Source: Bacteroidota bacterium (GTDB lineage Bacteria; Bacteroidota; Bacteroidia; AKYH767-A; OLB10). Taken from it: a DNA stretch of 59,511 bases. Positions 5,713 to 46,231 of the stretch are shown here, piece after piece. The first letter of the stretch is position 1, and each line of letters starts with the position of its first letter. The stretch spans positions 1 through 59,511 of the forward strand of contig CANFIN010000005.1 in assembly GCA_947447155.1 (NCBI GenBank). Reading direction: 5' to 3'. Below the pieces are notes generated by a model. It was not told the DNA's origin and did not search any database. It saw only the letters and a program-made list of their open reading frames with translations. Made by a program: the position numbers and the translations under genes.

Positions 5713-7764
5713 ATGAAAAAGCAATTGCTCGTTGCAGCATTATTTCTTTCTGTCGGATTTGTTTCTTGCAATCAGAACAAATCAACTACAGAAAAACCAG
5801 CAGATGTAAAAGATGTGCTGGTAGAAAACATGGACACTACCATCAACCCTGCCGATGATTTCTTCGGATATGCTTGTGGTGGCTGGATTAAGAACCATCC
5901 CATACCTGCCTCTGAAAAGGGATTTGGTATCTGGACGATGGTAATGAATGAAACGTATAACCGTACTAAATCCATTAGTGAAGAAGCTGGAAAATCAGAA
6001 GCTACGAAAGGAAGTATCGAACAAAAAATTGGAGATTTCTACTTTTCGGGTATGGATACCGTTAGTATTGATAAAATGGGTATTGCTCCACTTAAAAAAG
6101 AATTAGATGCTATTAGTAACATCAAAACAAAAGAAGATGTATTGGCAACAGTTGCGCATATGCAAGTATATGGAGCAAGTCCTTTTTACAGTGCAGGTGT
6201 TTATCAGGACGAGATGAACAGCGAGCAAGTATCAGTGCATCTTGGTCAAGGTGGAATTGGATTACCTGACCGTGATTACTATTTCAATTCAGATAGTCGC
6301 ACAAAAAACATTCGTGAAGAATACAAAAAGCATATTGTAAATATGTTTAAGCTAACTGGCGAAGACTCTGCAACAGCCAATGCTAACATGAATAAAGTAT
6401 GGAGCTTAGAAACTTCTTTTGCAAAAGCATCACGTAAGTTAGAAGACCTTCGTGATCCTTATGCTAACTACAACAAGAAAGCTGTATCAGAATTAGGAAA
6501 ACTTACGCCTTCTATCAATTGGGCAACAATGTTTACTAATATGAAAATGTCGAAATTGGATACTGTAATTGTGGGCCAACCTGAGTTTTTAAAGCAAATG
6601 GAAGCTTCTATCAAATCAGTTTCTATTGAAGATTGGAAAGCATATTTTAAATGGTGTTTAATAAATACTTATGGCGACTATTGCGGTAAAGAATTCGAAC
6701 AAGAAGCATTTAATTTTAATGGAAAAATATTAAACGGAGTTAAGGTACAACGTGACCGTTACAAGCGCGTATTGGATGAAGAAGAATCATGCATGGGCGA
6801 TTTACTAGGACAGCTTTACGTGAAAAATTATGTGTCTCCATCAGTAAAAAAACGTTACGAAGATTTAACAAAAAACATGTTCGATGCATATCGTGAACGC
6901 ATCAAAGGATTAGATTGGATGAGTGCAGAAACAAAAGAAAAAGCTATTAGCAAATTAAATTCAATAACTGTTAAATGCGGTTATCCTGATAAATGGAAAG
7001 ATTATTCATCGTTATCGATCAGCAGAGATGCTTATGTAATTAACATCATGAATAGTCACATTTGGGCACATGAATATCAAGTATCCAAATTAGGCAAACC
7101 AGTTGACCGTACTGAGTGGGATATGACTCCTCAGACTTACAACGCTTATTACAATCCTTCAAATAATGAAATCGTATTGCCAGCTGCAATATTTATCATT
7201 CCTGGACTACCAGATTCATTAGCAGATGATGCTATCATTTATGGATATGCGGGTGCTTCTACTATCGGTCACGAAGTAACGCACGGCTTTGATGACCAAG
7301 GAAGGCAATTTGATGAGAAAGGAAATTTGAAGTCATGGTGGACAGCAAACGACGAAAAAGAATTTAAGAACAGAGCACAGAAAATTATTGATCAATTCAA
7401 TAGCTTTAAAGTGTTAGACAGCTTACATGTTAATGGTGATGCAACACAAGGTGAAAACATCGCTGACTTAGGTGGAGTTGTAATCGGATTAGAAGCATTT
7501 AAGAAAACGGAGCAATATAAGTCTGGAAAAGTAATCAACGGCCTTACACCAGTACAACGTTATTTTATGGGATATGCATTAAGTTGGGTTGGACATTATC
7601 GTGATGAAGTAATGGCTTTACGTATTATGACGGATGTTCACTCGCCTAACTTCTTACGCGTGCAAGGACCAGTGATGAATGTGCCAGAATTCTACGAAGC
7701 GTTTAATGTAAAACCAAACAATAAAATGTTTGTTCCTCTTGAGAAAAGAGTGAAAATCTGGTAA
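5713..7764 (+). CDS. M13 family (neprilysin/PepO-like) zinc metallopeptidase, lipoprotein
   Basis: Start moved to ATG 5713 (MKKQLL...FVSC lipobox). P.DDFF.YACGGW, NAYYNP..NEIVLPAA, HEVTHGFDDQG (HExxH), GENIADLGG. Confidence 0.93.
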   Translation: MKKQLLVAALFLSVGFVSCNQNKSTTEKPADVKDVLVENMDTTINPADDFFGYACGGWIKNHPIPASEKGFGIWTMVMNETYNRTKSISEEAGKSEATKGSIEQKIGDFYFSGMDTVSIDKMGIAPLKKELDAISNIKTKEDVLATVAHMQVYGASPFYSAGVYQDEMNSEQVSVHLGQGGIGLPDRDYYFNSDSRTKNIREEYKKHIVNMFKLTGEDSATANANMNKVWSLETSFAKASRKLEDLRDPYANYNKKAVSELGKLTPSINWATMFTNMKMSKLDTVIVGQPEFLKQMEASIKSVSIEDWKAYFKWCLINTYGDYCGKEFEQEAFNFNGKILNGVKVQRDRYKRVLDEEESCMGDLLGQLYVKNYVSPSVKKRYEDLTKNMFDAYRERIKGLDWMSAETKEKAISKLNSITVKCGYPDKWKDYSSLSISRDAYVINIMNSHIWAHEYQVSKLGKPVDRTEWDMTPQTYNAYYNPSNNEIVLPAAIFIIPGLPDSLADDAIIYGYAGASTIGHEVTHGFDDQGRQFDEKGNLKSWWTANDEKEFKNRAQKIIDQFNSFKVLDSLHVNGDATQGENIADLGGVVIGLEAFKKTEQYKSGKVINGLTPVQRYFMGYALSWVGHYRDEVMALRIMTDVHSPNFLRVQGPVMNVPEFYEAFNVKPNNKMFVPLEKRVKIW

Positions 7765-29514: not shown

Positions 29515-30063
29515 ATGAAAATATACACTAAGACAGGTGACCAAGGCGAAACATCCTTAATTGGTGGAACGCGAGTTCCCAAATATCATTTGCGTATTGA
29601 AACCTATGGAACAATTGACGAATTAAACTCGTGGATTGGATTAATCAGAGATCAAATGACTGATAATAGTCAAGTACAGGAATTACTTTACATACAGGAC
29701 CGATTGTTTACCATAGGTTCATTATTGGCTGCAGACCCTGAAAAAAGTAAGATGAAGCTTCCAACATTATCAATTGAAGATTGCGAGATACTTGAAAAGA
29801 CTATGGACCGTATGGATGAGGAACTTGAACCATTAAAATCGTTCGTACTACCTGGAGGCCACCCGCTTGTATCTCAAATTCATATTGCAAGATGTGTATG
29901 CAGAAGGGCTGAAAGGCTCATTGTTCATTTACAAAAAGAGGCTGAAACCGACCCAATAATTGCTATTTATCTGAATCGATTATCGGATTATTTATTCATG
30001 TTGTCACGCCTGACAGCTAAAAATCTTAATGCTGTGGAGAGTCCTTGGACCCCAAGATTATAA
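29515..30063 (+). CDS. pduO: ATP:cob(I)alamin adenosyltransferase, PduO type
   Basis: MKIYTKTGDQGET, YGTIDELNS, FVLPGG, ARCVCRRAER, YLNRLSDYLF. Confidence 0.93.
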   Translation: MKIYTKTGDQGETSLIGGTRVPKYHLRIETYGTIDELNSWIGLIRDQMTDNSQVQELLYIQDRLFTIGSLLAADPEKSKMKLPTLSIEDCEILEKTMDRMDEELEPLKSFVLPGGHPLVSQIHIARCVCRRAERLIVHLQKEAETDPIIAIYLNRLSDYLFMLSRLTAKNLNAVESPWTPRL

Positions 30064-40030: not shown

Positions 40031-40558
40031 CTAATCCAAAACAAAACTGTGTTTTGTGCCATAATCTTTTAATCGCTCCATTAAACGCTGACGAGCTACA
40101 TGAATTCTAATTTTTACCGTTCCTAGTGGAACATCTAAATGCTCTGCTATTTCTTCATATTTATAACCTTCGAAGCTCATCAAAAAAGGTGTTTTTAAAT
40201 TATCCGCTAACTCACCTATTGCGGTATTCAACTCTTTCATAACAAGGTTTCTTTCTCCTTCGTTTTTTGCGGTAAAGCTTGCTTGATTTATATAAAACTG
40301 CCCTTCTGTATCATCGGTAAAGATGTTTCCCTTTACCATTCTTCTATAGTTATTGATGAAGATGTTTTTCATGATGGTGTACAACCATCCTTTAAGGTTT
40401 GTTCCCTCTTCAAACTTATCTTTATTCTTGAAAGCCTTTAACATTGTCTCTTGAACCAGGTCATTAGCATCTTCATGATCTTGCGTCAATTTTAAGGCGT
40501 AGCCTCTTAACGGACTATAATGAAGATTTACTTTATGGGAAAATTCAAAGTTTGTCAT
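40031..40558 (-). CDS. ECF sigma-70 factor (LitS-like context)
   Basis: DANDLVQETMLKA, NLKGWLYTIMKNIFIN, GYKYEEIAEHLDVPLGTVKIRIH. Confidence 0.93.
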   Translation of the reverse strand: MTNFEFSHKVNLHYSPLRGYALKLTQDHEDANDLVQETMLKAFKNKDKFEEGTNLKGWLYTIMKNIFINNYRRMVKGNIFTDDTEGQFYINQASFTAKNEGERNLVMKELNTAIGELADNLKTPFLMSFEGYKYEEIAEHLDVPLGTVKIRIHVARQRLMERLKDYGTKHSFVLD

Positions 40559-40589
40559 TGTTTAAATGTTTTGATTAAAAGTTGAACAA
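40558..40589. promoter_or_regulatory. Operator-like dyad 1: TTGTTTAA-N16-TTGAACAA
   Basis: Half-sites at 40558-40565 and 40582-40589; overlaps the sigma start codon and -7 element. Confidence 0.7.
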
Positions 40590-40618
40590 ATATAGGATGA
40601 CATGCTTCAACATACAAA
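40587..40618 (-). promoter_or_regulatory. Full Bacteroidota promoter for the ECF sigma gene (-33 TTTG, N20, -7 TATATTTG)
   Basis: CAAA at 40615-40618 and CAAATATA at 40587-40594 on the + strand. Confidence 0.75.
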
Positions 40619-40622
40619 AGTT

Positions 40623-40654
40623 TTGTTTAATTTTTTTGTCATATTTTTAAACAA
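40623..40654. promoter_or_regulatory. Operator-like dyad 2: TTGTTTAA-N16-TTAAACAA
   Basis: Perfect inverted 8-mers at 40623-40630 and 40647-40654, just upstream of the sigma -33 element. Confidence 0.75.
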
Positions 40655-40756
40655 GATTAAAATACTGATTTTTAGCTAGGTAGCCTTCTATCTACTTACT
40701 TAAGAATAGCTTTAATGACAATTTGGGGTCATATCCTCCTACTGAGTAAGCCTTTT

Positions 40757-40788
40757 TTGTTTAATTATCAGTCCCCTTTTTTAAACAA
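40757..40788. promoter_or_regulatory. Operator-like dyad 3: TTGTTTAA-N16-TTAAACAA
   Basis: Perfect inverted 8-mers at 40757-40764 and 40781-40788, 36 nt upstream of folE. Confidence 0.75.
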
Positions 40789-40824
40789 TATGCAAAACAG
40801 CTTGTTATAACCTAAAATCATTAT

Positions 40825-41511
40825 ATGAGCGCATACCCCTTAAAAGTATCCAATATAAATCACGATGATTTATTGGTAGACGATATTATCCATCAATTCA
40901 ATGGAATAGCCAAAACACCATTACACAAGAATGCTTTTGAATTGAGTCCGGAACAAAAAATTGAAAAAATTGCAGCACACTTTAGCGAGATACTTCATAC
41001 ATTAGGCATGGACCTTACAGATGAAAGCATCAAAGACACGCCATTGCGCGTAGCCAAAATGTATGTAAACGAGACTTTCAAAGGGTTAATTCCAGATAAT
41101 GAGCCCTCAATAACCCAGTTTGCCAACGACTATCGCTATTCGCAAATGTTAGTTGAAAAGAGCATTACCGTTTTTTCTACGTGTGAGCATCACCTTGTTC
41201 CCATTCATGGTAAAGCACATGTTGCTTATTTTTCTTCAGGCAAAGTAATAGGACTATCAAAATTAAATCGACTAGTTGATTATTATTCTCGTCGCCCGCA
41301 GGTGCAAGAGCGGTTGACTATACAAATAGCTGACGCACTAAAAAGAGCATTAAACTCAAATGATGTTGCGGTTGTCATAGATGCGCATCATATGTGCGTA
41401 GCATCGCGAGGCATCAGAGACGTTAATAGCTCAACGGTTACTGCAGAATATTCTGGTAAGTTTTTAAATCCAGAAACAAGAAAAGAGTTTTTAGAATTTA
41501 TCCGCGGTTAA
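40825..41511 (+). CDS. folE: GTP cyclohydrolase I
   Basis: TPLRVAKMY, STCEHHLVP, GLSKLNR, RRPQVQERLT, HMCVASRG. Confidence 0.96.
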   Translation: MSAYPLKVSNINHDDLLVDDIIHQFNGIAKTPLHKNAFELSPEQKIEKIAAHFSEILHTLGMDLTDESIKDTPLRVAKMYVNETFKGLIPDNEPSITQFANDYRYSQMLVEKSITVFSTCEHHLVPIHGKAHVAYFSSGKVIGLSKLNRLVDYYSRRPQVQERLTIQIADALKRALNSNDVAVVIDAHHMCVASRGIRDVNSSTVTAEYSGKFLNPETRKEFLEFIRG

Positions 41512-42395
41512 GCGTTTAACACATTTAATAAAGAAGAAAGGTCTTGCATAGAAGTTAAGACCTTCACATTCGAAGGCAATTGAATATTAGCCTGCATCAT
41601 CTGAAATCCGCTTAAAAGAATTTTTGTATTCGGAAAATCGTTGGATAATTTCTTTGTTATAAAGAGTGGCGTTTGCGTTGGATGTGGTGCTGTCAAAACA
41701 GTCAAAATATAATCCGCTTTATATAATTGCATTACCGGACCTAAATCGTCAATTGGTAAATTAGGGCCAAGATAATTCGTATGATGGCCTTTTGAACGTA
41801 TCAGATAATTCGCGAACAACAATCCGATTTCATGTGGTTCGAATCCTGGAAGAAACAGCAAGAATTTTTTTCCACCTGATTTAAGATGTTTAGGCTGAGC
41901 ATCGGCCGCAACAAATAATTTCTGACGGATTAAATTCGTGATAAAATGCTCGTAAGCAGGGTTTATACTACCTGTTTGCCACAACATTCCCACTCTGCCA
42001 AAGAAAGGAAAAACTAAATCTAAAAAAGTATTTTCAAATCCATTTTTTAATGTGTACGCTGAAAGAATCTGTTCAAAAACTACTTCATCAAAATTAAACA
42101 TCGCAACAGTTAACGACTCAATCTGAACCACATGATCTCCTGATAACTGAGAAATATCCTGAACTATAGAAGATCTTTCATTATCACTCATACTAGTGAT
42201 TTTCGAAATCTTATAGCCATTTCGGTTAAGCGCCGAAACACTCAACAACAATTTAATATCCTCATCGTCGTAAAAACGAATATTCGTCGATGTGCGCTTG
42301 GGCTGTGGAATACCATACCGCTGCTCCCAAATACGCAGTGTATGGGATTTTATACCCGTTAAAACCTCTACATCTTTTATCGAAAACTGGTTCAT
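41508..42395 (-). CDS. MerR-family regulator with B12-binding domain (CarH/LitR-type photoreceptor)
   Basis: MerR HTH with TLRIWEQRY; W-x9-EH (WQTGSINPAYEH); ExHxxG (EPHEIG); YLGPNLP. Confidence 0.88.
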   Translation of the reverse strand: MNQFSIKDVEVLTGIKSHTLRIWEQRYGIPQPKRTSTNIRFYDDEDIKLLLSVSALNRNGYKISKITSMSDNERSSIVQDISQLSGDHVVQIESLTVAMFNFDEVVFEQILSAYTLKNGFENTFLDLVFPFFGRVGMLWQTGSINPAYEHFITNLIRQKLFVAADAQPKHLKSGGKKFLLFLPGFEPHEIGLLFANYLIRSKGHHTNYLGPNLPIDDLGPVMQLYKADYILTVLTAPHPTQTPLFITKKLSNDFPNTKILLSGFQMMQANIQLPSNVKVLTSMQDLSSLLNVLNA

Positions 42396-42443: not shown

Positions 42444-42782
42444 CTATTTGGAATAAAGTTTTCGTAATATAACTTTTATTAACTCACGTTTTACAACCAG
42501 AGCAGTTAAAGCAGGTATATCTGAACAAGGTCCTCTTTCAGGGTAATGATGTTCTGGGATATCTATCTGATAAAGTAGTGATGCGAGCCTTGAGTTCTCT
42601 TCTTTACACCATTGTTTTAAATACGGCTCGATGTGCATTTGCAAATGTATTATCCCGGTGAGCTGCATAACATCAAATTCAACTTGAAAACCCATGCGTT
42701 CACAATCTCTGATAAATTGCTGCGCAGTCAGTCGAATAAATTCGAGATCATTTCTATATTTATCAAGTTGTTGCTCATCCAT
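42444..42782 (-). CDS. Conserved hypothetical protein
   Basis: 112 aa; LLYQIDIPE...KRELIKVILR motif; upstream of and co-oriented with the MerR gene. Confidence 0.75.
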   Translation of the reverse strand: MDEQQLDKYRNDLEFIRLTAQQFIRDCERMGFQVEFDVMQLTGIIHLQMHIEPYLKQWCKEENSRLASLLYQIDIPEHHYPERGPCSDIPALTALVVKRELIKVILRKLYSK

Positions 42783-42786
42783 AATT

Positions 42787-43788
42787 ATGCATTACAAAAA
42801 TAATTTTATTCCTTCACTATCATTTAGCTTTTTGCTATTTATAATGCAAACATTTATCAGCTCTTCTACAAATGCACAAGGATATTATAGACCGCATCCG
42901 TTTTTATCTCCAATGTGGCAAATTGAAGGTGAATATATACCAGCATCGCAAATAAAAGATTCTACAGTATCTAATGGCTATACCGGCGCTAACTTCGCTT
43001 TACGAGTTCCTGTTTGGAAGAAGAAAGACTGGCTTGATGCAAGCGGAGGGAAACCTTTCATCGCAATTCTAACACACTACGGATTAAGTGCACGCAGATC
43101 ACAAATTGATTTCTTTCAACCAAATCAGAACTTTACAGTATCTAAGTTTGGCGTTTCAGGCGTAATGGCAAAAGGACTACGAAATTTATATTTGATGCAA
43201 GGATTTGTGAGTATGCCTACCTCCGATTTTTCATTTCAACTAAATCACATGCGTTACCATGCAACTGGATTATGGCGACACTTATACCAAAATAATAAAT
43301 GGTGGCACACATTGGGAATTACATACTCTCCAATTTTTGGTAAAGACTATATTTTGCCCATCGCTGGTGCGGGTGTTCAACTTTCCAATGAGAATCAATT
43401 GCAATTTACATTTCCGTTTAATATGACATATACGCATATGTTCACTCGAAAATTCAGCTTAAGCTTGAAATTAAATAATTCTGGAGGGTATAACTTTTTT
43501 ACTTCGGATAGCATCAATAATAACGAATGGAGTATCTATCGCTTTAACTATAAACGTGGAAGTGTTTTAATCAGATACTATACAGATCGATTTGTAGTTT
43601 TTACTTTAGAAGGAGGTGCTACTAGTTGGGCCAATTTAGAAATAAATGATATCACATATCAACAACATCCATCATTTTATGTAAAAATGGGTTTTCAAAT
43701 TCGATTTGGTAAACGACCACCAGCGGCTCCGATATTGAATTTTGATCCAGGCGAATCAGGTTTCGACCCGAATTACATTGTTGAATAA
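42787..43788 (+). CDS. Outer-membrane beta-barrel protein (DUF6268-like)
   Basis: Start moved to ATG 42787 to avoid overlap; signal-like segment ending TNA/Q; aromatic-rich amphipathic strands (LGITYS..FG...LPIAG, FTFP). Confidence 0.65.
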   Translation: MHYKNNFIPSLSFSFLLFIMQTFISSSTNAQGYYRPHPFLSPMWQIEGEYIPASQIKDSTVSNGYTGANFALRVPVWKKKDWLDASGGKPFIAILTHYGLSARRSQIDFFQPNQNFTVSKFGVSGVMAKGLRNLYLMQGFVSMPTSDFSFQLNHMRYHATGLWRHLYQNNKWWHTLGITYSPIFGKDYILPIAGAGVQLSNENQLQFTFPFNMTYTHMFTRKFSLSLKLNNSGGYNFFTSDSINNNEWSIYRFNYKRGSVLIRYYTDRFVVFTLEGGATSWANLEINDITYQQHPSFYVKMGFQIRFGKRPPAAPILNFDPGESGFDPNYIVE

Positions 43789-44034
43789 ACTATTTAGGAT
43801 AGAGGTTGTTTTGATTTGATTATTTGATTTCGCCTAGAAATATTGGGATACTTTAGAAATTAAAATCACAAAAAACAATAAAACAGGGGACCTCCTAGGC
43901 CCCTCCCACTATAAATTTAATAGTTAAAAAAATACAAGCCAACTATATTTAAATCTTAAACGTTTGTTGTCGGATATTCAAATCTAAAATCTAAGAATGA
44001 ACGACTTAATTTCTTAACAAATCACAATATATTG

Positions 44035-44928
44035 ATGAAAAATATTCTAATAGCAGGAGGCAGCGGTTTAGTTGGAAAGCAACTTTCAAATCTTCTTTTA
44101 CAAAATGGTTATGAGGTTGCTTGGCTTTCTAGAAGTAATAATCAATCACAATCTTTTCCTTCCTATAAGTGGGACCCTGAAGCAGGGATAATAGATCTTC
44201 AAGCTATCGCCTTTGCTGATGTGATAATTGTTTTATCTGGAGAAAATATTGCCGCTGAAAGATGGACAGATAAGTTCAAGAAAAAAATTATAACCAGTCG
44301 ACTGCAAGCTGCCGCAACAATAAACAACGCAATTAAAAATCATCCCAATCATGTTACACATGTAATTGCTGCCTCAGCAATTGGTTTTTATGGAGATCAT
44401 TATGACACCTTACTTGATGAAGTGAGTGAAAAAGGAAAAGGTTTTTTATCAGACACCACCCAACAATGGGAAAATGCATACTCTGATTTTACAGTTCCAG
44501 TTAGCAACATTCGCATTGGTGTAGTGCTATCAAAATTAGGAGGCGCCTTAGTTGAAATGTCACTTCCCGTTAAATGGGGTATCGCATCCCCGTTAGGAAG
44601 CGGAAAACAATTTATCAGCTGGATCCATATTGATGATCTCGCAGGTATATTTATGCATGTAATACAGAATCAACTGACTGGTAAATACAATGCCGTTGCA
44701 ACAAATCCAGTTACAAACGAAGAGTTTACTAGACAACTAAAACATTCTTTGTGTAAAAACGCAATCAGTATCCCAACTCCTACATGGGCATTGAAAATAT
44801 TACTCGGAGAAAAATGTGCAATTGTACTTGATTCTTCTCGTGTATCTAACAAAAAAATAATTGATTCAGGATTTACTTTTAAATTCGAATTCCTTGAACA
44901 AGCCTTAAAAAACTTTTATGGAAAATAA
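44035..44928 (+). CDS. TIGR01777 family NAD-dependent epimerase/oxidoreductase
   Basis: ILIAGGSGLVG, LSGENIA..RW, SAIGFYG, RIGVVL...GGAL, LGSGKQFISWIHIDDL, F.FKF..LEQAL. Confidence 0.92.
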   Translation: MKNILIAGGSGLVGKQLSNLLLQNGYEVAWLSRSNNQSQSFPSYKWDPEAGIIDLQAIAFADVIIVLSGENIAAERWTDKFKKKIITSRLQAAATINNAIKNHPNHVTHVIAASAIGFYGDHYDTLLDEVSEKGKGFLSDTTQQWENAYSDFTVPVSNIRIGVVLSKLGGALVEMSLPVKWGIASPLGSGKQFISWIHIDDLAGIFMHVIQNQLTGKYNAVATNPVTNEEFTRQLKHSLCKNAISIPTPTWALKILLGEKCAIVLDSSRVSNKKIIDSGFTFKFEFLEQALKNFYGK

Positions 44929-46231
44929 ACAACAAATTGCTATTCATTGGTTTCGTCGAGATTTAAGATTGCATGATAACAATGCTTTATTTAATGCGCT
45001 TAAAAGTAACATCCCCGTGTTGCCTATATTTATTTTTGATACGCACATATTAGATAAACTTGAAAACAAACAAGACGCAAGAGTTGAATTTATTTATAAT
45101 TCACTTCTTTCCATTCATGAACAACTTCAAAAGATAAAATCAGGCTTAAAAATATTATATGGTAACCCCCTTGATTGCTGGAGAAAGTTGATTGAAGAAT
45201 ATGATATTAATTGTGTATTTACAAATCACGATTATGAACCCTATGCAATAAATCGTGATAAAGAAATTGAGTCACTTCTAAGTAAAAAAAATATCTCATT
45301 TAAGACCTATAAAGACCAGGTGATTTTTGAAAAATCAGAAGTGGTGAAAGATGATGGAAAGCCATACACTGTGTATACTCCTTATAGTAGAAAATGGATG
45401 AGTCGTTTGAATGCAGAAGGTATTCCAAGTTATGATTCAAAATCGCTATTAAATAATTTTTATCAAACAACAATAAATTTTCCTTCACTAAAATCTATCG
45501 GATTTAAAAAAAGCGATTTAATATTTCCATCGGATCATTGCGCCGATGAAATCATTCAAAAATACGCGGACCAACGCGATATTCCGGGAATTAATGGAAC
45601 CAGTCGTTTAGGAATTCATTTGCGTTTCGGAACTATTTCTATTCGTGATATGGCACGAAAAGCGAAATATTTAAGTGATAGCTGGCTCAACGAATTATGC
45701 TGGCGAGAATTTTATATGATGATTCTTTGGCATTTTCCACATGTTATCGAAGGGGCATTTAAACCTTTGTATAATTCAATTAAATGGAGAAACAACGAGG
45801 AAGAATTTAATGCATGGTGCGAAGGAAGAACCGGATACCCCATTGTGGATGCTGGTATGCGTGAATTAAACACCTCAGGGTATATGCATAACCGTGTGCG
45901 TATGGTTGTTGCAAGTTTTCTAACTAAACATTTGCTTATCGACTGGCGATGGGGAGAAGCTTATTTTGCTTCTAAACTCCTCGACTTTGACTTATCAGCT
46001 AACAACGGCGGTTGGCAATGGGCTGCAGGAAGCGGCTGCGATGCAGCGCCCTATTTCAGAATTTTTAATCCGTACGAGCAAACAAAAAAGTTTGATAGCG
46101 ATTTAAAATACATTCGTAAATGGGTACCCGAGTTTCAGGACTTCAGCTATCCGCAACCGATAGTAGACCATAAAATAGCCAGGGAGAGATGCCTTGTTAC
46201 TTATAAAATTGGATTAAATCGAGAATTATGA
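44918..46231 (+). CDS. phrB: Deoxyribodipyrimidine photolyase (class I CPD type)
   Basis: WFRRDLRLHDN, ELCWREFY, GRTGYPIVDAGMREL, MHNRVRM, LLDFDLSANNGGWQW, PYFRIFNP. Confidence 0.94.
   Translation: MENKQQIAIHWFRRDLRLHDNNALFNALKSNIPVLPIFIFDTHILDKLENKQDARVEFIYNSLLSIHEQLQKIKSGLKILYGNPLDCWRKLIEEYDINCVFTNHDYEPYAINRDKEIESLLSKKNISFKTYKDQVIFEKSEVVKDDGKPYTVYTPYSRKWMSRLNAEGIPSYDSKSLLNNFYQTTINFPSLKSIGFKKSDLIFPSDHCADEIIQKYADQRDIPGINGTSRLGIHLRFGTISIRDMARKAKYLSDSWLNELCWREFYMMILWHFPHVIEGAFKPLYNSIKWRNNEEEFNAWCEGRTGYPIVDAGMRELNTSGYMHNRVRMVVASFLTKHLLIDWRWGEAYFASKLLDFDLSANNGGWQWAAGSGCDAAPYFRIFNPYEQTKKFDSDLKYIRKWVPEFQDFSYPQPIVDHKIARERCLVTYKIGLNREL

What the first reader, a model, noticed from the sequence alone, without database searches (positions are those of the whole stretch)
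40558..40788. Three copies of an operator-like dyad TTGTTTAA-N16-TT(A/G)AACAA in the divergent sigma/folE region
Seen: three dyads with identical 16-nt spacing, at 40558-40589 (one mismatch), 40623-40654 and 40757-40788. Two sandwich the sigma promoter (-33 at 40615-40618, -7 at 40587-40594); one of these covers its 5' UTR and start codon. The third is just upstream of folE, where I see no TAnnTTTG. Exact spacing three times in 230 bp is unlikely by chance even in AT-rich DNA (not computed). Inference: these are binding sites of the neighbouring CarH/LitR-like regulator. The inverted geometry differs from the tandem direct repeats described for characterised CarH operators, so this may be a distinct recognition mode and a handle for predicting the regulon.
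Basis: partly seen in the sequence, partly recalled or inferred. Interest (0 to 1): 0.7.

Follow-up and report, generated by a model that had tools for sequence, protein, structure and literature searches.

The report
B12 light-repressor operator dyads
Three copies of a 32-base inverted repeat around a sigma-factor promoter look like the docking sites of the neighbouring vitamin-B12 light sensor, and the same site marks pigment, rhodopsin and light-protection genes across a whole class of bacteria.

Summary
TTGTTTAA-N16-TTRAACAA occurs at 40558-40589, 40623-40654 and 40757-40788 and nowhere else in the 2.46 Mb genome; shuffles give none.

It is a conserved operator, not chance. The half-sites persist while the spacer changes in 17 of 18 orthologous sigma loci. 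Strict copies outnumber a reversed control 123 to 6 in the order and 199 to 13 in a class sample.

The likely binder is the adjacent LitR/CarH protein:
- 34 of 47 dyads in five other families lie within 1 kb of a litR homologue.
- 41 of 44 litR-linked ECF sigma genes in named Bacteroidota carry a dyad.
- All 3 sigma homologues found in LitR-lacking genomes have none.
- Each half-site holds the published CarH core TnnACA, and the recognition helix is invariant.

The dyads overlap -7 boxes in fixed registers, so I read them as dark-state repression sites.

The regulon includes the ECF sigma, folE, litR2-crtI, DUF4397 genes and rhodopsin. In this genome a one-mismatch dyad precedes rhodopsin.

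This is a new operator architecture for a known family. Nothing here has been tested experimentally.

The parts
40558..40589 (.). Dyad 1 (TTGTTTAA-N16-TTGAACAA). It covers the sigma 5' leader, abuts the sigma ATG and overlaps the -7 box.
   Evidence: The same position next to the ATG is kept in 15 orthologous regions. In one search, 41 of 44 litR-linked sigma genes in named genomes have a dyad within 150 bp of the start.
40623..40654 (.). Dyad 2 (exact), just upstream of the sigma -33 element, 65 bp centre to centre from dyad 1.
   Evidence: A pair spacing of 62-67 bp recurs in 32 of 103 neighbouring pairs.
40757..40788 (.). Dyad 3 (exact), 36 bp upstream of the folE ATG.
   Evidence: It is kept before folE in relatives, with an N17 form in L009 and L012 by my reading of the printed sequences.
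40587..40594 (-). Candidate housekeeping -7 box TATATTTG of the sigma gene. Its last 3 bases are shared with dyad 1.
   Evidence: A TAnnTTTG box is marked in this register in all 15 orthologous regions. The same fused register occurs at 34 of 130 unique strict dyads. The consensus itself is recalled, not taken from a call.
40615..40618 (-). Candidate -33 element TTTG of the sigma promoter, between the two dyads.
   Evidence: CAAA/CAAG is kept 5-6 nt from dyad 2 in orthologues (by eye).
40031..40558 (-). ECF-type sigma factor gene (175 aa), the proposed light-derepressed relay.
   Evidence: Pfam Sigma70_r2, Sigma70_r4_2 and Sigma70_ECF. A homologue sits next to litR in 44 of 80 named loci.
40825..41511 (+). 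folE (GTP cyclohydrolase I), divergent from the sigma gene and preceded by dyad 3.
   Evidence: Pfam GTP_cyclohydroI, E 1.8e-62.
41508..42395 (-). LitR/CarH-like regulator (295 aa): MerR-type DNA-binding domain plus B12-binding module. It is the proposed binder of the dyads.
   Evidence: Pfam MerR_1 and B12-binding_2. T. thermophilus CarH 5c8d, E 3.9e-21, with W-x9-EH and E-x-H aligned. W139, E149, H150, E186 and H188 are invariant in 21 homologues.
42444..42782 (-). orf112, a small conserved gene just upstream of litR on the same strand; function unknown.
   Evidence: No Pfam or NCBIfam hit. tblastn found it beside litR in 29 of the 30 loci; L005 ends 52 b before litR.
40803..40809 (+). TGTTATA box 14 nt after dyad 3; unexplained (orphan third half-site or promoter element).
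   Evidence: (kept before folE in relatives). The same box follows the rhodopsin-upstream dyad on contig C83 at the same distance from the TAAACA core.

Best explanation
The three dyads are operators of the adjacent AdoCbl-type LitR/CarH photoreceptor-repressor.

Each 8-base half-site contains the CarH recognition core TnnACA (here TAAACA). Each is probably read by one MerR-type DNA-binding domain. The two half-sites are inverted and 24 bp apart centre to centre, instead of tandem at 11 bp.

In the dark the B12-bound oligomer would occupy two sites at the sigma promoter. Dyad 1 covers the -7 box, the transcription start and the leader up to the ATG. Dyad 2 abuts the -33 element. Together they would shut off the housekeeping promoter of the ECF sigma gene. 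Dyad 3 would hold folE off.

Light would photolyse AdoCbl, the oligomer would fall apart and the genes would be released. The ECF sigma would then act as a second-tier relay, as LitS does in Streptomyces.

Shown here: the motif, its conservation, its tie to litR genes, its register with -7 boxes, and its target genes.

Inferred: binding by LitR, B12 and light dependence, one dimer per dyad, bridging of paired dyads, and the sigma regulon.
For: 1. Specificity. There are only 3 strict sites in the genome, all in this region, and exact matches occur at N16 only. Strict sites outnumber the reversed control 123 to 6 in 146 genomes of the order (my sums), and 199 to 13 in 301 genomes of the class sample. 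N17 is a minor form, 13 to 3.

2. Footprint. In 17 of 18 loci with an adjacent sigma homologue the half-sites are kept while the spacer differs. An unbiased enumeration of all 6-mer inverted repeats at spacings 0-30 was run on 43 sigma-upstream regions of named genomes outside the window's genus. It ranks TGTTTA-N18-TAAACA first, in 33 of 43 regions; the shuffled maximum was 2.

3. Tie to LitR.
- 34 of 47 strict dyads in families f2-f6 lie within 1 kb of a litR homologue, and several abut the start codon of a litR paralogue.
- In 80 named Bacteroidota litR loci (434,738 b) there are 57 N16 sites with up to 1 mismatch and 0 reversed-control sites.
- 41 of 44 litR-linked sigma genes have a dyad within 150 bp.
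- 73 of 126 LitR-positive genomes have a strict dyad, against 3 of 20 LitR-negative genomes.
- Among 10 near-complete LitR-negative genomes, 7 lack the sigma homologue. The 3 that keep it have no dyad upstream: the best match has 4-6 mismatches of 16.

4. Protein.
- The DNA-binding domain aligns with T. thermophilus CarH.
- The recognition helix and wing are invariant in 21 homologues of both paralogue types.
- The published CarH repeat is nAnnTnnACAn (PMC8156234 passages; PMC9304148 passages).
- One CarH head-to-tail dimer contacts DR1 and DR3, which are not adjacent in a tandem 11-bp array. By my arithmetic that is 22 bp apart, close to the 24 bp found here.

5. Repressor geometry. A TAnnTTTG box overlaps the dyad in a few fixed registers at 57 of 130 unique strict sites; the background is 0.53 counts per position.

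6. Light regulon.
- Dyads precede rhodopsin in 15 of 30 rhodopsin loci across the class.
- In this genome a one-mismatch dyad lies 116 bp upstream of rhodopsin.
- Dyads also precede litR2-crtI, folE/PTPS and DUF4397 genes.
- Light induction of rhodopsin, crtBI and a MerR regulator is reported in Dokdonia (bioRxiv 10.1101/2023.12.25.573297, passages).
Against: - There is no binding, expression or light/dark data for this organism or any relative carrying the dyad.
- 53 of 126 LitR-positive genomes have no strict N16 dyad.
- In genus g12, sites with up to 2 mismatches are not above the reversed control.
- 6 of 8 further litR loci had no N16 or N17 dyad with up to 2 mismatches within 3 kb.
- Two real-looking dyads occur in genomes without a detected LitR: G016 (88% complete) and G034 (90% complete).
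- Pfam's Rossmann-type B12-binding model (PF02310) did not reach E 0.001 on this protein.
- The NCBIfam CarH equivalog scores 93.9 bits against a cut-off of 400.
- The genomes compared are related to one another, so the counts are not independent.
- The -33/-7 consensus is recalled. No transcription start is mapped.
Confidence: 0.8

Rival explanations
1. The dyad is a promoter of the ECF sigma factor (-35 and -10 elements 16 nt apart). It would drive autoregulation and the sigma regulon, not act as a repressor site.
For: The motif lies upstream of the sigma gene itself and of several co-regulated genes, as ECF promoters do. The spacing of 16 resembles a -35/-10 spacer. At folE and at the rhodopsin gene of this genome a TGTTATA box lies 15 nt after the TAAACA core, so a promoter overlapping that half-site is possible there.
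Against: Both halves are reverse complements of each other, and the inverted repeat is the top-ranked feature. A sigma factor has no reason to read such a site. Dyad 1 abuts the sigma ATG, and many dyads abut litR2 or rhodopsin start codons, so a start 7 nt after the '-10' would fall inside the coding sequence. Canonical -7 boxes overlap the dyads in fixed registers. The TGTTA box at that offset occurs in only 9 of 254 flanks.
Confidence: 0.04
2. A different symmetric DNA-binding protein of the light regulon binds the dyad, and LitR is only a frequent neighbour. Candidates are the product of orf112, a Crp-like or PadR-like neighbour, or an unlinked factor.
For: Binding by LitR is not shown. 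orf112 is conserved next to litR and has no known family. Crp-like and PadR genes sit beside some dyads. Two dyads occur in genomes where no LitR was detected.
Against: The half-site holds the CarH core TnnACA, and the LitR recognition helix is invariant. Dyads abut the starts of litR paralogues that have no orf112 homologue annotated beside them. Crp and PadR neighbours are sporadic. A 24-bp centre distance is, from recall, too long for Crp/FNR-type dimers. It is close to the 22 bp I compute between the two repeats (DR1 and DR3 of an 11-bp array) that one CarH dimer contacts.
Confidence: 0.1
3. The dyads act as RNA or DNA hairpins (leader structure, terminator or recombination site), or are chance repeats in AT-rich DNA.
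For: Dyad 1 would be transcribed as part of the sigma leader. The arms can pair.
Against: The predicted RNA hairpins are weak: -0.1, -3.0 and -3.7 kcal/mol, with z-scores +1.13, -1.96 and -2.58. Dyad 2 lies upstream of the -33 element. Shuffles and reversed controls exclude chance.
Confidence: 0.01

Closest known systems
CarH operators of Thermus thermophilus, Bacillus megaterium and Myxococcales (AdoCbl-dependent class I LitR/CarH)
   Same: The protein architecture and B12 motifs are the same. Each repeat carries the TnnACA core. The operator overlaps the core promoter, which implies repression in the dark.
   Different: Published operators are 3-4 tandem direct 11-bp repeats bound on one face. 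Here two repeats are inverted, with the ACA ends outward, and lie 24 bp apart with an AT-rich non-conserved centre. They often come in pairs 42-44 or 62-67 bp apart.
Class II LitR (PplR1, PmlR2) operators of Pseudomonas: T(G/A)TACA-N12-TGTA(C/T)A
   Same: Two hexamers that fit TnnACA are separated by a fixed long spacer. There are two sites per promoter, one at the upstream promoter element and one between the transcription start and the ATG. folE and photolyase belong to the regulon (PMC9758184, passages).
   Different: The Pseudomonas hexamer is itself palindromic, so its orientation is undefined. Its spacer is N12 between hexamers, against N18 here. Its regulator lacks the full B12 domain and works with a LOV protein.
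Streptomyces LitR-LitS cascade
   Same: A B12-type LitR sits next to an ECF sigma gene whose promoter it represses in the dark, and the sigma then drives light genes (PMC11519972, passages). The same gene pair is found here and in 44 of 80 named Bacteroidota loci.
   Different: The Streptomyces operator was not described in the passages I read. The targets of the Bacteroidota sigma are not identified. Here LitR also seems to control many genes directly.
Canonical MerR-family operators
   Same: The DNA-binding domain is MerR-type and the site is dyad-symmetric.
   Different: From recall, MerR dimers bind short palindromes inside a 19-20 bp promoter spacer and activate by distorting DNA. Here the half-sites are 24 bp apart and lie outside or across the core elements.

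Membership tests
LitR/CarH class I (AdoCbl photoreceptor-repressor) | N-terminal MerR-type winged-helix DNA-binding domain | tested here: met
   Pfam MerR_1, E 8.3e-15. Residues 4-70 align to T. thermophilus CarH.
LitR/CarH class I (AdoCbl photoreceptor-repressor) | Four-helix bundle with the W-x9-EH motif | tested here: met
   Pfam B12-binding_2. The W...EH stretch aligns to the CarH motif. W139, E149 and H150 are invariant in 21 homologues. The motif name is recalled.
LitR/CarH class I (AdoCbl photoreceptor-repressor) | Rossmann-type B12 domain with a His lower ligand in E-x-H-x-x-G | tested here: inconclusive
   E186 and H188 are invariant and align to the CarH E-x-H-E-x-G stretch. However, Pfam PF02310 gave no hit at E 0.001 on this protein, and the NCBIfam CarH equivalog scores 93.9 bits against a cut-off of 400.
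LitR/CarH class I (AdoCbl photoreceptor-repressor) | AdoCbl binding, dark oligomer, light-driven disassembly | not testable with these tools
   Needs purified protein. A cobalamin adenosyltransferase gene lies in the window at 29515-30063.
CarH-type operator | Repeat with the core TnnACA | tested here: met
   The half-site TTAAACAA contains TAAACA. TGTTTA-N18-TAAACA is the top dyad in 33 of 43 independent regions.
CarH-type operator | Three or four tandem direct repeats with 11-bp period | tested here: not met
   The two repeats are inverted and 24 bp apart. The centre of the spacer is not conserved.
CarH-type operator | Overlap with the core promoter of a housekeeping-sigma promoter | tested here: met
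   The -7 box shares 3 bases with dyad 1. Fixed registers occur at 57 of 130 sites. The promoter consensus is recalled and no transcription start is mapped.
Class II LitR operator (TGTACA-N12-TGTACA) | Hexamer spacing N12 | tested here: not met
   The spacing between TnnACA hexamers here is N18, with N19 as a minor form.
LitR-LitS type cascade | litR linked to an ECF sigma gene whose promoter carries the LitR site | tested here: met
   41 of 44 linked sigma genes carry a dyad.
LitR-LitS type cascade | The sigma factor transcribes light-induced genes | tested here: inconclusive
   The photolyase operon at 44032-46231 has no dyad. Comparing its upstream region with relatives gave no clear ECF-type promoter.
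ECF sigma promoter | Asymmetric -35/-10 pair with a transcription start upstream of the start codon | tested here: not met
   The site is a symmetric dyad. Dyad 1 and many others abut start codons.

The most novel reading that the evidence does not exclude
Bacteroidota LitR uses the two-fold symmetry of its head-to-tail dimer to read two inverted TnnACA half-sites 24 bp apart. One tetramer would bridge two dyads phased 4 or 6 helical turns apart, wrapping the core promoter. This would be an operator architecture not described for the CarH family. The same B12 photoreceptor would then be the master light switch of the class. It would directly gate proteorhodopsin, retinal and carotenoid genes, an ECF sigma relay, and a large set of secreted DUF4397 proteins of unknown function. 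Rhodopsin phototrophy in these bacteria would therefore depend on vitamin B12 supply.
Probability: 0.3. Interest if true: 0.8.

Novelty: new variant of a known kind. Interest (0 to 1): 0.62.

Why it matters
CarH/LitR is the founding B12-based photoreceptor and is used in optogenetics. Its characterised operators are tandem direct repeats.

A conserved inverted design found across the class would widen what is known of how the tetramer meets DNA. It would also give a compact 32-bp operator for engineering.

Biologically, it offers a concrete and testable route for the light induction of proteorhodopsin and carotenoid genes in Bacteroidota. Transcriptomes report that induction. No paper in my seven searches tied it to this dyad or to a LitR operator in this phylum.

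It also links that response to B12 availability, and it flags DUF4397 proteins as an unstudied part of the light response.

Tried and rejected
1. ECF-promoter reading. Rejected as the main explanation because of dyad symmetry, start-codon abutment and overlap with -7 boxes.

2. RNA hairpin reading. Rejected because the folds are weak.

3. Search for the sigma factor's own promoters.
- I compared the region upstream of the yfcH-photolyase operon in 12 genomes of the genus. I found conserved blocks but no convincing -35/-10 pair.
- I scanned the genome for a TGTTATA box. TAAACA-N14-17-TGTTATA has 7 hits, 2 of them at the folE and rhodopsin dyads.
- The box is not general (9 of 254 flanks). Left open.

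4. Fusion of the -7 box to a half-site as a universal rule. Not so: 12 of 51 sites in the first set. The later register analysis shows several registers.

5. Looking for the motif string in papers. This returned 2,400 papers holding one or both strings; none of the 25 listed was relevant.

6. A family name for orf112 and for the gene at 42787-43788. None in Pfam or NCBIfam.

7. I did not run structure or complex prediction. An oligomer of LitR would pass by likeness to solved CarH, and the tool takes no DNA.
Full report
**Observation.** TTGTTTAA-N16-TTGAACAA lies at 40558-40589, and TTGTTTAA-N16-TTAAACAA at 40623-40654 and 40757-40788.
- None of 100 dinucleotide-preserving shuffles of the window gave a match.
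- With up to 2 mismatches the same three sites are the only ones in the window, against a shuffle mean of 0.32.
- In the whole assembly (2.46 Mb, 172 contigs, 84.5% complete, 35% G+C) the strict pattern matches only these three places, and the reversed control matches none.
- Scanning spacings 0-40 gave exact dyads at N16 only.

**Genes around the dyads**:
- 40031-40558 (-): an ECF-type sigma factor.
- 40825-41511 (+): folE.
- 41508-42395 (-): a MerR-type regulator with a B12-binding module.
- 42444-42782 (-): a conserved gene of 112 codons with no family.
- 44032-46231 (+): a yfcH-like oxidoreductase and a photolyase.
- 29515-30063 (+): a cobalamin adenosyltransferase.

The single TAnnTTTG in the intergenic region is TATATTTG on the minus strand at 40594->40587. 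It shares three bases with dyad 1. A TTTG lies at 40618->40615, five bases from dyad 2. No such box precedes folE. The -33/-7 consensus of Bacteroidota is recalled, not taken from a call.

**Conservation.**
- With the regulator as query, 53 of 61 genomes of the family had a homologue.
- In the 18 loci where a sigma homologue lies within the fetched flank (L004-L021), 17 have at least one N16 dyad with up to 2 mismatches. The exception, L010, has 3-mismatch and N17 forms.
- The 16 spacer bases differ between species while the half-sites stay, as expected of a protein footprint.
- In all 15 sigma-folE regions laid out, a box matching TAnnTTTG overlaps the distal half of the sigma-proximal site. 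In 13 of them that site scores 3 mismatches or fewer.
- Strict dyads were found in 34 of 61 genomes of the family.
- In the order, 76 of 146 genomes have a strict dyad: 123 sites against 6 for the reversed pattern, by my sums of the table.
- In an even sample of the class, 132 of 301 genomes have one: 199 sites against 13.
- N17 is a minor form, with 13 sites against 3, six of them beside litR.
- As an unbiased check I enumerated every 6-mer inverted repeat at spacings 0-30 in 43 sigma-upstream regions. These came from named genomes outside the window's genus. TGTTTA-N18-TAAACA came first, in 33 of 43 regions. GTTTAA-N16-TTAAAC came second, in 29. The maximum in 20 shuffled sets was 2.
- Positions flanking the 8-mers show a preference for T before the left half, and for an A/T-only stretch at spacer positions 10-13.

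**Which protein binds.**
- The dyads follow litR genes. In the five other families of the order, 34 of 47 strict dyads lie within 1 kb of a litR homologue. This is my count.
- Two locus types recur. In type A, litR is followed by one or two dyads and the ECF sigma gene, with folE sometimes in between. In type B, a dyad abuts the start codon of a litR paralogue (34-40% identical) that heads an operon with a phytoene-desaturase-like gene.
- In 80 litR loci from named Bacteroidota there are 57 N16 sites with up to 1 mismatch (26 exact), 8 N17, 1 N15, 0 N18 and 0 reversed-control sites, in 434,738 bases. The genera include Algoriphagus, Marivirga, Fibrisoma, Carboxylicivirga, Chryseobacterium and others.
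- 44 of those loci carry a sigma homologue, and 41 of the 44 have a dyad (up to 2 mismatches) within 150 bp of its start.
- 73 of 126 LitR-positive genomes of the order have a strict dyad, against 3 of 20 LitR-negative ones. One of those three sites lies inside a long reading frame, in a genome that also hits the control.
- Of 10 near-complete LitR-negative genomes, 7 lack the sigma homologue at E 1e-15. The 3 that keep one (59-64% identical) have no dyad in the 330 bases upstream. The best matches there have 4-6 mismatches of 16.

**The protein fits the site.**
- It aligns with T. thermophilus CarH (5c8d, E 3.9e-21) through the DNA-binding domain, the W-x9-EH stretch and the E-x-H stretch.
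- In an alignment of 21 homologues of both locus types, several residue sets are invariant: the recognition helix (H18, T19, R21, W23, E24, R26), the wing (P32, R34, N38, R40, Y42), and W139, E149, H150, E186 and H188.
- The published CarH repeat is nAnnTnnACAn (PMC8156234, passages), also written nnnnTnnACAn (PMC9304148, passages). The half-site TTAAACAA contains TAAACA, which fits the TnnACA core.
- The same papers say that CarH of Thermus binds three tandem 11-bp repeats and CarH of Bacillus binds four.
- They also say that one head-to-tail dimer contacts DR1 and DR3. In an 11-bp array those are 22 bp apart by my arithmetic. Here the two hexamers are 24 bp apart centre to centre, but inverted.

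**How it most likely works.**
- The position of the dyads argues for repression. Among 130 unique strict dyads, a TAnnTTTG box overlaps the dyad in a few fixed registers. It is fused to a half-site in 34 sites and lies inside the dyad in 27, so 57 sites have one or the other. The background is 0.53 counts per position.
- At the sigma gene, dyad 1 would cover the -7 box, the start site and the whole leader up to the ATG. Dyad 2 abuts the -33 element.
- Neighbouring dyads prefer two centre distances: 42-44 bp (17 pairs) and 62-67 bp (32 pairs) of 103 pairs. These are close to 4 and 6 helical turns. That suggests cooperative binding on one face, for instance one dimer of a tetramer per dyad. This step is inferred.
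- The cascade design has a precedent. In Streptomyces, LitR with AdoB12 represses the litR and litS promoters in the dark, and the ECF sigma LitS then drives the crtE promoter (PMC11519972, passages).

**Regulon.**
- In 33 further dyad loci of the family, the adjacent genes were as follows: a DUF4397 protein in 19, an ECF sigma in 5 (with folE or a 6-pyruvoyl-tetrahydropterin synthase as divergent partner in 3 of them), rhodopsin in 2 (one with a beta-carotene dioxygenase gene), fasciclin or glutathione peroxidase plus SOUL in 2, a litR paralogue with crtI in 1, and other or unknown genes in 4.
- In other families the DUF4397 genes often carry a type IX secretion tail.
- In this genome, the best site outside the window is a one-mismatch dyad on contig C83 at 6402-6433. 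It lies 116 bp upstream of a rhodopsin gene.
- Of 30 rhodopsin loci sampled across the class, 15 have a dyad (up to 2 mismatches, N16 or N17) within 500 bp upstream, and 11 have one with at most 1 mismatch. From the rate, about 0.2 would be expected by chance. Several of these dyads abut the rhodopsin start codon.
- A Dokdonia transcriptome reports light induction of proteorhodopsin, crtBI, a MerR-family regulator and photolyases (bioRxiv 10.1101/2023.12.25.573297, passages). I did not check whether that genome carries the dyad.

**Against, and limits.**
- No binding or expression data exist for these sites.
- 53 of 126 LitR-positive genomes lack a strict dyad.
- In genus g12, sites with up to 2 mismatches are no more frequent than the reversed control.
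- 6 of 8 further litR loci show no N16 or N17 dyad with up to 2 mismatches within 3 kb.
- Pfam's PF02310 did not hit this protein, and the NCBIfam CarH equivalog is far below its cut-off. The protein is therefore a family member by motifs, not an equivalog.
- Counts across related genomes are not independent.
- The unpublished genomes G035 and G237 are included in the tallies: G035, and G237. Loci L025 and L047 come from G035. Leaving them out changes each tally by at most one genome and no conclusion.

**Comparison with what is known.** The closest published operator in layout is that of class II LitR in Pseudomonas. It reads T(G/A)TACA-N12-TGTA(C/T)A, with Site 1 at the -35 element and Site 2 between the transcription start and the ATG. 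folE and phrB belong to its regulon (PMC9758184, passages). The present site differs in four ways:
- its spacing;
- its unambiguous inverted orientation;
- its regulator, which is of the full B12 type;
- its spread through a whole class.

I found no paper that describes this dyad or a LitR operator in Bacteroidota in seven searches. The library lacks most subscription journals, so this is not proof of absence.

**Verdict.** This is a real, conserved operator, most likely of the adjacent LitR/CarH repressor.

Noticed in passing
window 42444-42782 (-): orf112 is a gene of 112 codons just upstream of litR on the same strand. tblastn found it beside litR in 29 of the 30 loci (33-93% identical); L005 ends 52 b before litR. 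Unannotated frames of 106-124 codons occupy the same position in another family. It has no Pfam or NCBIfam family. It might be an accessory or antirepressor of LitR.
   Followed up: partly
loci L040-L073 and L078-L107 (relatives); not found next to a dyad in the window: DUF4397 proteins, many with a type IX secretion tail, are the most common gene directly downstream of a dyad: 19 of 33 loci and 8 more. Their function is unknown. My search for papers holding DUF4397 and the word light returned 4 papers, none on a light response judging by titles and abstract starts.
   Followed up: partly
G000 contig C83:6402-6433 (outside the window; locus L197): A one-mismatch dyad lies 116 bp upstream of a rhodopsin gene of this genome. 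A relative in the same genus has an exact dyad before rhodopsin plus a beta-carotene dioxygenase gene.
   Followed up: yes
window 40665-40670 and orthologous regions: A block YTGATT, preceded by TAAA, is kept 9-12 nt beyond dyad 2 on the folE side in most of the 15 orthologous regions (by eye). No explanation.
   Followed up: no
window 40803-40809; G000 C83 near 6380: A TGTTATA box lies 15 nt after the TAAACA core of the gene-proximal half-site, both at folE and at the rhodopsin dyad. It could be an orphan third half-site: pairs of dyads 44 bp apart place a left half at this offset. It could also be a promoter element.
   Followed up: partly
window 29515-30063 (+): A cobalamin adenosyltransferase gene (Pfam Cob_adeno_trans, E 7.9e-61). 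The enzyme makes AdoCbl, the chromophore that a CarH-type protein needs.
   Followed up: no
loci L077, L081, L085, L086, L096, L099, L100, L103-L105, L070: A second LitR paralogue (32-38% identical) heads an operon with a phytoene-desaturase-like gene, and a dyad abuts its start codon. It keeps the W-x9-EH and E-x-H residues. It was not found in the window's assembly, which is 84.5% complete.
   Followed up: partly
window 42694-43788 (+): The listed frame overlaps the start of orf112 by 89 bases. A later ATG at 42787 is followed by a signal-peptide-like stretch and is the likelier start. The protein has no family in Pfam or NCBIfam.
   Followed up: no
window 43884-43912: A G+C-rich inverted repeat follows the gene that ends at 43788. 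It is kept, with sequence changes, in eight genomes of the genus, just upstream of the yfcH-photolyase operon. It looks like a terminator.
   Followed up: no
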